In this document: positions 46,101 through 49,100 of the stretch, one piece after another
Layout: every line of letters begins with the position of its first letter
Position numbering within the stretch: position 1 is the stretch's first letter
Origin: Escherichia coli
Lineage (GTDB): Bacteria > Pseudomonadota > Gammaproteobacteria > Enterobacterales > Enterobacteriaceae
Length of the DNA stretch: 64,000 bases
Strand: one strand, 5' to 3'
NCBI RefSeq assembly: GCF_048403405.1
Contig: NZ_CP183129.1
Position numbers: made by a program

Positions 46101-49100
46101 GAGTTTGTCGGCGCAACGCTGCCAGCTGCTTTCCTCTGCCAGAGAGAGATGCTTACGCAGTCGGAGATCGAATTCGTTATAGGTTTCTGATCGATAACCA
46201 TAGCCATAATCCTCGTTCTGATACTGCAATGTCACTAGCAGAGGATCACTTTCATAACATCGTGTAATAAACTGGCGTGCAATCACCACCTCAGTCGCAT
46301 ATTCCAGTCCCTCTTGTTGGACGATTTCGTCGAGCAACTGTTGGCTATCATTTTGCGCGATACAGGCTAGCGCCGCCATTGTCCGGGCCGGAACTGAGGG
46401 TTTGTGTTCGCCAATCAAGTTGATGGCCTGCGTAATGGCCGACTGCCACTCCAGTGAAAAATTTTCATAACGCCAGACAATGTTTTTTTTCTTCTCAGCT
46501 TTTTGTAGCAATTCATCACCCAGTGTCTGGATGAGGCTTTCAGTGATAACAGGCACCGGTTCGCCCGGCCAACTGCGATGGCTGAGCGGCGTTTTGCCTT
46601 TTTTATATTTCAGTTCCACTTGGGCGTTATCCGCCAGCCACGGTAATTCCTTGTCCATGCTCTTTCCTTATTCAAACAGGGCTTCAATATCGTTAATGAG
46701 TTCGCTGGCGGTGATGTCGTCGAGCACGGAGAACTGCGCTTCCTGAGTTGAATTACTCCCCCAGCCATAGCTTTCCGCTTTGCCTTCCCATAGCCACAGC
46801 TTGCTTAAGACCTGCTCAGCGCTAAGATCGGCTGGTGACATACCCACCGCAAAACCTTCGTCGATTTCCATGATTAACGACCAGCGACCGAGAGGTTTGA
46901 TCATCCATCCGATCCAGCCTCCATCCTGTGGTTCGCCCTTTATCCAGCCTTTATTTGCCAGCCCCATGACCCGGCCGCTCGGGCATTTTCTGCCTGCCCA
47001 GCGGGTCAGTTCGCTGGCGTTGCGCTCGGCTTCTGTCAGGGCGTAACTGTTACGTTCAAGCTGACGGAACGGTGGTAGCAGTTCGTAGTCGGCAAAAAGC
47101 TGACCAAAGGCGACAGCATCCGTCGGTGATATTTCCAGAACGTGAGGAATGCCAACAGAGATATCGCCTTCCTGCAAGGTGAAAAGATCATCGTCAGCGG
47201 TGCTGTAGCTGTTATCTTCCGCCACCCTAAAGCACGCCTGTAGCTGGTTTTCGGCGCTATAAACGCCCCAAATCAGACGGCGGGTTAAGTGACGAACCAG
47301 CGGATGCTCAACCAGGAAGAGCTGAAAGTTTTCCGGCGACCAGCGGCGGCGCAGGCACATGGCGGATTCCAGCCTTGCTACCTGCTGGGCGGCGACGGTA
47401 CGCGCATCTTTTTTCAGCAATTTGTAGCGGTTAACAGCATCGTTTGCCTGTGATTCATCATCGCTTTTATTGGGTTTAGGTAAGTCTTTCAGGCGGCTGC
47501 CGGAAACATCGCGCACAAACGGTTTTAAGGTTTCATCAAAGCTGACGGTGAACTGCCGTGGGCCAAAATCCAGCAGCAGCGAACCGTTATCATCCAGACC
47601 GAGAGCCGGTGCTAACCGATCTTCAAGCTCCGCTACCGTCAGTTCGCGACTTTCGGCAATGTCGGCAATTTTCTCTTTCGCCCGCTCCTGTAATGCTTTG
47701 AATTTCAGTTTCTGGGCAATGCCGTTAAGCTGCATCAGGGCGATATCACTACTGATAGCGGCGAGGATATCCAGCCCGACGGTGGCGCGTTTATGCTGGG
47801 ATTCACCAGGCCAGGCGCGTATTAATGGCGTCAGTTTGCGGGCGGTGTCATCGTTACCGAGAACGCCTAACGCAGTGAACGCCCAACTCTCTTTCGACGG
47901 CGCGCCAGCGGTCTGCCAGGCGGTAAACAGATCCCAGGCAAATTCAGCCAGTGAGTCGGCGGTACAGGCATCTTTCACCTGCAATAATCCCGGATACAGC
48001 GCCTCCTCCTGATGGAAGCGGAGCATTTCACCGAGGTGCTGGAGTGCGCTATCGGGCAGTGATTGGGCATTTGCTTTTAATACCGGGCGGGTCCAGATCG
48101 ATGGCTGATAAAAGGCCGGAAGAGTGGGGATTTTTGTCGGGTGATTATCTAAGGGATCGAGCGCAAGCATAGCGTTCACCGCATCTGTTACTTCCGGCTG
48201 GTTATAACGCCGGGCGATTTCTTGCAGTAATGGTTGATGACCGTTTTCGGTAAGCATACGCAATGCAGCGCGGGCGTTATCCTGTGCTTCACCGGCTTTG
48301 CCGAGCGCCGCAGACAGCAGGCCGGTAATGGCGTGTTCCGGGTATTTCAGCAGCCAGGTGCGGGCGTCTTGTCGTAGGGTTTTGAGTTTGTTGAAGGCGC
48401 GGGCGACGGCAGGTGCCAGCTCACTCGCTGCGAAGTAATTCGTTATGGGCAAGGCTTCCTGTGGATAGCGTGCAAGTGAGTTTACTAACCCAGGTAATCC
48501 TTTGAGTCCAAAATGTAACATGGCGTATTCGGTATCGGTATGCGGAGATAGAGTAAGGGCATTCCATGCTCTTACTGCTTTCTCCAGCGGCAATGTTGTC
48601 AAAATCCCCAAATGCCAATAATGCCCGGTAGGTGAATGAAACACCTTAAATTCACTTATTAAAGTTGAATAATCTTCATTTAGCCATGCCTCAACTACCG
48701 CTTCGGGAGCTTTAATATATGTACCAGCGATCCGTCGTTGAAAACCCATCCTTGCCAACAGATTGGCAGTACTTTCTTCATGACTAACCGTGATGTGTTT
48801 TGAATACCAGATATATTTCGCCAAAAGTTGATTACTGATTTCTTCTGTCAGATAACTGATTGGCTCAATACCTAATGGTGCTAAATCAAGCACTGGAATC
48901 GGCGATTTTTTCTTTTTCGAAAGCCATGGTGGGGAGACTACTATGGCCGGCAGTAGATCGGCGCTGGCATGGTTTGAGGGCTGTGTCAGTTGTTGCTGGC
49001 ATGATTTCAGCACTGCAACTGCGGGTGTCGAAAGCCAGGGAATGACCTGTTCTGCTAGTGTCGGTTGCGAGATAAGCATCGTCATTAGCATAATGCGCCA

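What the first reader, a model, noticed from the sequence alone, without database searches (positions are those of the whole stretch)
46651..46670. yehI is a WGR-less paralog starting 9 nt after the molR stop
YehI aligns to MolR only from about MolR residue 105 and lacks the ~80-aa WGR domain, yet it has its own strong RBS (aaggaaag) inside the 9-nt gap. This may be an N-terminally truncated duplicate, or a deliberate two-component arrangement in which YehI acts together with a WGR-bearing partner.
Basis: seen in the sequence. Interest (0 to 1): 0.35.

Follow-up and report, generated by a model that had tools for sequence, protein, structure and literature searches.

The report
YehI: conserved WGR-less MolR paralog
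E. coli yehI is an intact, conserved copy of the neighbouring molR gene that lost its small N-terminal DNA-binding (WGR) module long ago; this domain difference is already in public annotation, and what the gene family does is still unknown.

Summary
On the minus strand, molR (46668-50462) ends with TAA at 46670-46668. Nine bases later yehI (43026-46658) starts at the ATG at 46658, behind an AAGGA ribosome-binding core that overlaps the stop codon.

- **Domains:** Pfam finds WGR plus DUF4132 in MolR and in a third upstream paralog (50475-54272). YehI has DUF4132 only. YehI residue 2 aligns with MolR residue 110.
- **No hidden WGR:** no WGR-coding remnant exists elsewhere in the window, and no other start codon is possible.
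- **Not decaying:** dN/dS against K-12 is 0.18. The same truncation point, just before a PWLAD motif, is kept in Escherichia, Klebsiella and a Serratia-labelled assembly.
- **Origin:** in a tree, the single WGR-bearing gene of Intestinirhabdus alba is sister to all WGR-less YehI. This points to one ancient WGR loss in a tandem duplicate.
- **Family-wide pattern:** about one third of full-length homologues lack WGR, and the loss recurred independently in several lineages. Some Actinobacteria carry only WGR-less copies beside the same yehLMPQ genes.

So "truncated duplicate" is supported. An obligatory WGR-bearing partner is neither shown nor needed. The finding is ordinary and already annotated, and the function of the SOS-box-headed locus is still open.

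The parts
46668..46670 (-). molR stop codon (TAA). Its last two bases are part of the yehI ribosome-binding sequence.
   Evidence: Sequence read; ORF list.
46665..46669 (-). Shine-Dalgarno core AAGGA for yehI, 6 nt upstream of the ATG.
   Evidence: An AAGGA core is also present in the 14-nt molR-yehI gap of Klebsiella grimontii. The 9-nt gap is the same in 5 of 5 other E. coli genomes sampled and in K-12.
43026..46658 (-). yehI, 1210 aa: a helical-repeat body plus C-terminal DUF4132, with no WGR.
   Evidence: Pfam; RefSeq annotation 'DUF4132 domain-containing protein YehI'; dN/dS 0.18 against K-12; AlphaFold models with pLDDT 88 and 94.
43245..43799 (-). DUF4132 domain of YehI (residues 954-1138).
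   Evidence: Pfam PF13569, E=5e-47. It lies in the modelled alpha/beta C-terminal region, for which no significant PDB match was found.
44709..45458 (-). Hypervariable central segment of YehI (about residues 401-650).
   Evidence: The minimum identity to E. fergusonii and E. albertii YehI in this segment is 16-32% (residues 451-550). It rises to about 40-68% at the segment's edges. Most flanking blocks are 82-100% identical. Within E. coli, dN/dS is 0.46-0.70 for codons 401-600.
46668..50462 (-). molR, 1264 aa: WGR, a flexible linker, the helical body and DUF4132.
   Evidence: 'WGR and DUF4132 domain-containing protein'.
50256..50444 (-). WGR domain of MolR (residues 7-69).
   Evidence: Pfam PF05406, E=1e-17. 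It matches the WGR of PDB entry 2ra8 (E=1.6e-18).
50475..54272 (-). Third paralog, 1265 aa, WGR plus DUF4132. About 1100 of 5426 complete E. coli genomes have a match covering at least 80% of the three-gene region.
54282..54297 (-). LexA-type SOS box CTGGATAAAATTACAG (CTG-N10-CAG), 9 nt upstream of the first paralog's ATG.
   Evidence: conserved upstream of the first paralog in E. coli, E. whittamii, Escherichia sp. E1V33, K. grimontii, K. oxytoca and I. alba. A review lists molR among LexA-regulated genes with a known SOS box (PMC6590174).
42645..42965 (-). yehK, 106 aa, no Pfam family. Found only in the Escherichia loci.
40981..42069 (-). yehL, a MoxR-type AAA+ ATPase (AAA_5).
   Evidence: Pfam, E=1.8e-34; annotation.
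38691..40970 (-). yehM, DUF5682 protein.
   Evidence: Pfam, E=1.4e-96; annotation.
37562..38698 (-). yehP, CoxE-type vWA protein.
   Evidence: Pfam VWA_CoxE, E=6e-71; annotation.
35565..37565 (-). yehQ, SWIM zinc-finger protein.
   Evidence: Pfam SWIM, E=7e-8; annotation.

Best explanation
yehI is the last of three tandem paralogs (third paralog, molR, yehI) that stand in front of yehK and yehLMPQ in this E. coli strain.

**Origin (inferred from the trees).** All three paralogs descend from one WGR-linker-helical body-DUF4132 gene that was duplicated before Escherichia and Klebsiella split. In the yehI lineage, a single deletion removed the WGR domain and its flexible linker, about 108 codons. 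The intergenic ribosome-binding site and a start codon were left directly in front of the conserved PWLAD motif that opens the body.

**Status (shown).** The truncated gene was kept under purifying selection, so it makes a working protein.

**Translation (inferred from geometry).** The start at 46658 has an AAGGA sequence overlapping the molR stop codon, so yehI is probably translated by ribosomes that have just finished molR.

**Role (inferred, lower confidence).** WGR is regarded as a DNA-binding module. It sits on a variable Pro/Ser/Thr-rich tether at the N-terminus of the paralogs that have it. The body shared by all paralogs is a helical-repeat scaffold with a variable centre and a conserved C-terminal third. 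That body is probably what engages the MoxR ATPase (YehL), the vWA protein (YehP), YehM and YehQ. On this reading, YehI is the DNA-untethered version of the scaffold. It could act as an alternative adaptor or as a hetero-partner of MolR. The locus head carries an SOS box.
For: - **Geometry and domains:**
- **No WGR remnant, no alternative start:**
- **Orthologues:** WGR-less orthologues of 1195-1216 aa, with the same truncation point, occur in E. coli, E. marmotae, E. fergusonii, E. albertii, Klebsiella species and a Serratia-labelled assembly.
- **Gene order:** metG, WGR-bearing copy, WGR-less copy, yehLMPQ in Klebsiella. In I. alba, a single WGR-bearing gene of the YehI clade precedes yehLMPQ.
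- **Tree:** the enteric clade, the three paralog clades, the WGR-less YehI clade and the clade adding I. alba as sister each have 100% bootstrap support.
- **Selection:** yehI dN/dS is 0.18 overall and 0.11 for codons 1-100, against 0.04 for metG and 0.05 for yehL. yehI is intact in 4 of 5 sampled genomes and molR in 5 of 5, with the 9-nt gap unchanged.
- **Ribosome-binding site:** AAGGA is conserved in Klebsiella although the gap there is 14 nt.
- **WGR is an optional module in the family:** 76 of 114 full-length representatives have an N-terminal WGR and 38 lack it. Median lengths are 1258 and 1148.5 aa. Pfam confirmed 8 of 8 checked WGR-less calls.
- **Recurrent independent losses:**
- **C-terminal third is the best conserved part:** 35-43% identity to distant homologues against 16-37% for residues 1-760.
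- **SOS box:** conserved across enteric genera, and molR is listed as a LexA-regulon gene.
Against: - No experiment here shows that YehI protein is made, that it starts at 46658, or that it contacts MolR or YehLMPQ.
- The I. alba gene could itself be a recombinant (MolR WGR joined to a YehI body) rather than the ancestral form. WGR sequences cluster by genus rather than by paralog, so its origin cannot be traced. Such recombinants do exist in E. coli.
- Grouping of paralogs by lineage in the trees could partly reflect gene conversion rather than independent duplication.
- The trees are neighbour-joining on corrected p-distances, not maximum likelihood.
- WGR-less status in high-GC loci rests on a home-made HMM applied to six-frame ORFs. 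Only eight WGR-less representatives from the protein-representative search were re-checked with Pfam. None of the high-GC locus calls was re-checked.
- One sampled E. coli genome has a frameshifted yehI.
Confidence: 0.7

Rival explanations
1. Obligate two-component arrangement. YehI works only as a hetero-oligomer with a WGR-bearing paralog (MolR or the third paralog). The partner supplies DNA binding in trans, and the 9-nt coupled junction ensures matched synthesis.
For: The tight coupled junction is conserved in E. coli and Klebsiella. MolR is intact in 5 of 5 sampled two-paralog genomes. A WGR-bearing copy followed by a WGR-less copy next to yehL arose independently in Enterobacteriaceae, Chitinibacter, Tahibacter, a Rhodanobacteraceae genome and Ramlibacter. 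In Deinococcus, WGR and DUF4132 occur on separate damage-induced proteins (PMC8533742).
Against: Systems with only WGR-less copies plus yehLMPQ exist in Mycolicibacterium, Kibdelosporangium, Rhodococcus, Williamsia and Actinomadura. K-12 keeps an intact yehI beside a molR pseudogene. An orphan WGR-less copy occurs in a Serratia-labelled assembly. In Massilia and Lentzea the copy next to yehL bears a WGR. No interaction was tested.
Confidence: 0.2
2. Non-functional leftover. yehI is a truncated duplicate on its way to becoming a pseudogene, kept only because it was recently formed or is transcribed along with its neighbours.
For: It lacks a domain that the other two paralogs keep. dN/dS is higher than for neighbouring housekeeping genes (0.18 against 0.04-0.05) and reaches 0.70 in one central block. 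One sampled genome has a frameshift.
Against: A 1210-codon ORF is intact in the large majority of genomes. 5425 of 5426 genomes have a match to the locus, and one 90%-identity YehI cluster holds 7478 sequences. Orthologues at 55-62% identity keep full length and the same start position in other genera. dN/dS is well below 1, including the first 100 codons.
Confidence: 0.04
3. Mis-called start or fusion protein. YehI is really made as a MolR-YehI fusion by read-through of the TAA, since the two ORFs are in the same frame. Alternatively, it starts upstream with a WGR encoded in another frame.
For: All three paralog ORFs share one reading frame in this strain, with gaps of 12 and 9 nt.
Against: The Klebsiella gap is 14 nt, so the shared frame is not conserved. 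No WGR-like coding potential exists upstream in any frame. The upstream sequence encodes the conserved MolR C-terminus. A proper AAGGA plus ATG sits at the junction.
Confidence: 0.02

Closest known systems
E. coli MolR and the wider WGR + DUF4132 protein family (Pfam PF05406 + PF13569)
   Same: 38% identity over nearly the whole YehI length, the same DUF4132 domain, the same helical body and the same operon.
   Different: YehI lacks MolR residues 1-109 (WGR plus linker). It also carries clade-specific insertions, such as the EPPxRPGYP...KKLPxQQK segment. MolR's published role as a 'molybdate metabolism regulator' was not tested here, and K-12 molR is a pseudogene.
Intestinirhabdus alba single WGR + DUF4132 gene (P0115)
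   Same: It is the sister of all YehI orthologues and shares the YehI-specific insertions and position next to yehL.
   Different: It keeps a WGR joined by a proline-rich linker and is the only paralog at the locus.
MoxR AAA+ / vWA pairs (CoxD-CoxE, RavA-ViaA, and the MoxR-vWA ternary conflict systems of Kaur et al. 2020, PMC7159879)
   Same: The locus encodes an AAA_5 MoxR-type ATPase and a CoxE-type vWA protein next to large variable partner proteins. The paper describes a general scheme in which the vWA domain captures a peptide and the ATPase remodels the substrate.
   Different: That paper does not mention WGR, SWIM, MolR or Yeh proteins. No effector domain was recognised in any Yeh protein, and no PADLOC defence model matches.
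WGR domain of poly(ADP-ribose) polymerases
   Same: MolR and the third paralog match the same Pfam WGR family. WGR is described as a DNA-binding domain (PMC7824862).
   Different: No ADP-ribosyltransferase domain is present, and YehI has no WGR at all.
Deinococcus radiodurans DR2173 (WGR) and DRA0166 (DUF4132)
   Same: They carry the same two domains and are induced by the DNA-damage regulon (PMC8533742). This parallels the SOS box at the head of the E. coli locus.
   Different: The domains are on separate, unlinked genes. Their relationship to YehI was not analysed here.

Membership tests
DUF4132 / MolR-YehI protein family | C-terminal DUF4132 domain (PF13569) above the Pfam gathering score | tested here: met
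   160.6 bits against a cut-off of 27, residues 954-1138.
DUF4132 / MolR-YehI protein family | Full-length homology of the roughly 1100-aa body to MolR-type proteins | tested here: met
   BLASTP: 38% identity over 1188 columns to MolR and 31% over 1240 columns to the third paralog. 5643 representative clusters have E<=1e-3.
DUF4132 / MolR-YehI protein family | Gene neighbourhood with MoxR ATPase, DUF5682, CoxE-type vWA and SWIM genes | tested here: met
   yehLMPQ lie downstream in the window. The same neighbourhood occurs in Proteobacteria and Actinobacteria.
WGR domain proteins (PF05406) | A WGR domain detectable by profile search | tested here: not met
   No WGR hit in YehI at E<=0.01. No WGR-coding remnant in any frame. 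MolR and the third paralog do meet this feature.
MoxR-vWA remodelling systems (CoxD-CoxE type) | Adjacent AAA_5/MoxR ATPase and vWA (MIDAS) protein genes | tested here: met
   YehL matches AAA_5 (E=1.8e-34) and YehP matches VWA_CoxE (E=6e-71).
MoxR-vWA remodelling systems (CoxD-CoxE type) | A defined substrate or third component acted on by the ATPase-vWA pair | not testable with these tools
   That YehI or MolR is the client or adaptor is inferred only from conserved gene linkage.
Known anti-phage defence systems (PADLOC-DB v2) | A match of any locus protein to a defence-system model | tested here: not met
   0 families for all eight proteins at E<=0.01.
LexA (SOS) regulon | A CTG-N10-CAG operator in the promoter region of the operon's first gene | tested here: met
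   CTGGATAAAATTACAG at 54282-54297, conserved in six enteric genomes. A review lists molR with a known SOS box. Whether the transcript reaches yehI was not tested.

The most novel reading that the evidence does not exclude
The yeh locus may be an uncharacterised SOS-controlled sensing machine. In this reading, a tandem array of one to at least seven rapidly diversifying giant scaffold paralogs feeds a MoxR ATPase-vWA-SWIM module. Some scaffolds are tethered to DNA through WGR and others, such as YehI, are free. WGR-less copies next to the ATPase gene evolved repeatedly because the DNA-tethered and free scaffolds divide the labour. The role could be in the DNA-damage response or in conflict with phages and mobile elements.
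Probability: 0.25. Interest if true: 0.6.

Novelty: already known. Interest (0 to 1): 0.25.

Why it matters
By itself it matters little. RefSeq already names the genes "WGR and DUF4132 domain-containing protein" and "DUF4132 domain-containing protein YehI", so the domain difference is public. The added value is evolutionary. The WGR loss is old, happened once in the enteric lineage, is under selection, and is mirrored by independent losses elsewhere. WGR therefore behaves as a detachable module of a very large, widespread protein family (thousands of clusters) whose function is unknown. That family sits in a core E. coli locus headed by a LexA box. The gene set can be manipulated in E. coli, which makes it a reasonable entry point for finding out what these MoxR-vWA-SWIM systems do.

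Tried and rejected
- **Hidden WGR upstream or in another frame:** tblastn of the two WGR segments against the whole window gave only the two known N-termini. Rejected.
- **Read-through fusion:** all three ORFs share a frame in E. coli, but the Klebsiella gap is 14 nt. Rejected as a conserved mechanism.
- **Known defence system:** no PADLOC hit for any of eight locus proteins.
- **Literature:** six full-text searches found no functional study of YehI, DUF4132 or yehLMPQ. The MoxR-vWA conflict-system paper does not cover this locus.
- **Origin of the I. alba WGR:** comparing WGR sequences failed to trace it, because WGRs group by genus and not by paralog.
- **Failed runs:** a first bootstrap tree with Biopython timed out and was redone with a faster routine.
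Full report
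**Where we are.** The window is E. coli chromosome, 100% identical over the tested 11.5 kb to strain TUM14771. It runs opposite to the K-12 map. On the minus strand the order is:

- metG
- a 1265-aa paralog (50475-54272)
- molR (46668-50462, 1264 aa)
- yehI (43026-46658, 1210 aa)
- yehK
- yehL, yehM, yehP and yehQ

**The observation.** It is correct.
- molR ends with TAA at 46670-46668.
- The spacer GGAAAGAGC occupies 46667-46659.
- yehI starts with ATG at 46658.
- The AAGGA core lies 6 nt from the ATG, a standard ribosome-binding geometry.

Pfam finds WGR plus DUF4132 in MolR and in the third paralog, and only DUF4132 in YehI. BLASTP aligns YehI residue 2 with MolR residue 110 (38% identity) and YehI residue 6 with residue 95 of the third paralog (31%). 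MolR and the third paralog are 43% identical to each other.

**Could a WGR be hiding?** No.
- tblastn of both WGR-plus-linker segments against all six frames of the window finds only the two known N-termini. The next hit has E=0.15.
- Upstream of yehI lies the conserved C-terminus of MolR.
- The in-frame codons between the TAA and the ATG (GGA AAG AGC) cannot start translation.
- The conserved PWLAD motif begins at residue 6, so the start cannot lie further downstream either.
- All three ORFs share one reading frame here. In Klebsiella grimontii, however, the equivalent gap is 14 nt with the same AAGGA core. The shared frame is therefore a coincidence, and conserved read-through is rejected.

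**Is yehI alive?** Yes.
- Against K-12, yehI has dN/dS 0.18, and 0.11 over the first 100 codons. metG has 0.04 and yehL 0.05.
- The locus is matched in 5425 of 5426 complete E. coli genomes.
- In five sampled two-paralog genomes, molR was intact in five and yehI in four, always with the 9-nt gap.
- K-12 is unusual in having a molR pseudogene beside an intact yehI.

**Where did the WGR go?**
- WGR-less orthologues of 1195-1216 aa occur in E. marmotae, E. fergusonii and E. albertii. They also occur in Klebsiella oxytoca, K. grimontii and K. huaxiensis, and in a Serratia-labelled assembly. Identity to the query runs from 86% down to about 55%.
- The four WGR-less sequences aligned (E. coli, E. 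albertii, K. grimontii and the Serratia-labelled one) begin 2-6 residues before PWLAD.
- In Klebsiella the order is metG, WGR-bearing copy, WGR-less copy, yehLMPQ.
- In Intestinirhabdus alba (Enterobacteriaceae) a single gene sits between metG and yehL. It has the YehI-specific insertions and also a WGR on a proline-rich linker.
- A neighbour-joining tree on 1085 body columns, WGR excluded, with 200 bootstraps gives 100% support for five groupings. These are the enteric clade, each of the three paralog clades (each containing both Escherichia and Klebsiella), the WGR-less YehI clade, and that clade plus I. alba as sister.

The simplest reading is a triplication before the Escherichia-Klebsiella split, followed by one loss of WGR plus linker in the yehI lineage.

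One caveat applies. WGR sequences group by genus rather than by paralog. The two E. coli WGRs are 86% identical and the two K. oxytoca WGRs are 86% identical, while cross-genus orthologues are 74-79% identical. This looks like gene conversion. E. coli alleles that fuse a MolR or third-paralog N-terminus to a YehI C-terminus also exist. The I. alba gene could therefore be such a recombinant rather than the ancestral form.

**How general is this?** The family is very large: 5643 clusters at 50% identity with E<=1e-3.
- Among the 114 full-length proteins in the best 150, 76 have an N-terminal WGR and 38 do not. Median lengths are 1258 and 1148.5 aa.
- Pfam confirmed eight of eight WGR-less calls that were checked.
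- A scan of one genome per species returned 62 loci. These carry one to at least seven tandem DUF4132 genes beside yehL-, yehM-, yehP- and yehQ-like genes. They come from Gamma-, Beta- and Alphaproteobacteria and from Actinobacteria.
- Mycolicibacterium, Kibdelosporangium, Rhodococcus, Williamsia and Actinomadura have only WGR-less copies.
- Mixed arrays with the WGR-less copy next to yehL occur in Enterobacteriaceae, Chitinibacter, Tahibacter, a Rhodanobacteraceae genome and Ramlibacter. In trees, each WGR-less copy groups with WGR-bearing copies of its own lineage, with 100% support in most cases. For Chitinibacter the support was 100% in the tree and 60% in the tree. The losses therefore recurred.
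- Massilia and Lentzea show the opposite order.

WGR is thus a detachable module. A WGR-bearing partner is common but is not required by the system as a whole.

**What the protein looks like.** AlphaFold models built with 64-68 homologues are confident.
- Residues 741-1210 (pLDDT 94) combine HEAT-like helices with an alpha/beta region that includes DUF4132. That region has no significant match in the PDB.
- No enzymatic fold was recognised.
- The C-terminal third is the best conserved part across the family (35-43% identity).
- A central segment (about residues 401-650) is hypervariable. Its core (residues 451-550) is only 16-32% identical between E. coli and E. fergusonii or E. albertii, while most flanking blocks are 82-100% identical. 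dN/dS there is 0.46-0.70.

**Context and likely mechanism.**
- The partner genes encode a MoxR-type AAA+ ATPase, a DUF5682 protein, a CoxE-type vWA protein and a SWIM zinc-finger protein.
- For MoxR-vWA pairs generally, the vWA domain is thought to capture a peptide of a client that the ATPase then remodels (PMC7159879). That paper does not cover this locus.
- A LexA-type box, CTGGATAAAATTACAG, lies 9 nt before the first paralog's start. It is conserved in six enteric genomes.
- A review lists molR among LexA-regulated genes with a known SOS box (PMC6590174).
- In Deinococcus, WGR and DUF4132 proteins belong to the damage-induced DdrO regulon (PMC8533742).

I therefore infer, without direct evidence, three things:
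- The paralogs are scaffold or sensor subunits for the YehLMPQ machine.
- WGR tethers some of them to DNA.
- YehI is the untethered version, made by ribosomes coupling from molR.

No PADLOC defence model matches any locus protein.

**Verdict.** The "truncated duplicate" reading is supported, with the correction that the gene is old, conserved and selected rather than decaying. The "two-component" reading remains possible but is not obligatory. The domain difference is already in RefSeq product names, so the finding itself is ordinary. The open and more interesting question is the function of the whole SOS-box-headed locus.

Noticed in passing
window 54282-54297 (- strand): A LexA-type SOS box, CTGGATAAAATTACAG, lies 9 nt upstream of the first DUF4132 paralog's ATG. 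It is conserved at the same place in E. coli K-12, E. whittamii, Escherichia sp. E1V33, K. grimontii, K. oxytoca and I. alba. It is absent upstream of the Iodobacter, Chitinibacter and Lysobacter genes. A review lists molR as a LexA-regulon gene.
   Followed up: partly
window 42502-42591 (+ strand), in the yehK-yehL intergenic region: A 29-codon ORF, MDTLTQKLTVLIAVLELLVALLRLIDLLK, lies on the opposite strand. It sits where 29-aa type I toxin genes (z3289/z3290) with antisense small RNAs were reported between yehI and yehL in O157:H7 (PMC2887945). Its sequence was not compared with z3289/z3290. No antitoxin small RNA was searched for.
   Followed up: partly
window 44709-45458 (yehI codons about 401-650): A hypervariable central segment. 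Identity to E. fergusonii and E. albertii YehI falls to 16-32% in its core (residues 451-550), while most flanking blocks are 82-100% identical. dN/dS within E. coli is 0.46-0.70 for codons 401-600. This suggests allele replacement or diversifying selection.
   Followed up: partly
window 50256-50444 and 54072-54260 (the two WGR domains); loci L005, L009, L012, L015: WGR domains are more alike between paralogs of one genus (86%) than between orthologues of different genera (74-79%), although the protein bodies form deep paralog clades. This points to gene conversion or concerted evolution of the WGR module.
   Followed up: partly
proteins P0119, P0030, P0050 (E. coli): Natural chimeric genes join a MolR or third-paralog N-terminus (with WGR) to a YehI C-terminus. 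They presumably arose by recombination between the tandem paralogs, with loss of the intervening DNA.
   Followed up: no
window 50475-54272: A match covering at least 80% of the three-gene region, which implies the third paralog, is found in about 1100 of 5426 complete E. coli genomes. The rest carry only molR and yehI. A published ST131 sublineage has a resistance transposon inserted in this metG/DUF4132 region (PMC9334617).
   Followed up: partly
loci L007 and L008 (assembly labelled Serratia fonticola): An orphan WGR-less YehI orthologue (62% identity) lies next to a Transposase_31-family (PF04754) gene, with no yehLMPQ within 10 kb. It is present on two contigs of the same assembly.
   Followed up: no
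loci L033, L038, L039, L060 (Methylobacterium and Methylorubrum): The gene order differs here. The DUF4132 genes sit between yehM-like and yehP-like genes (order L-M-[DUF4132]-P-Q) instead of in front of yehL.
   Followed up: no
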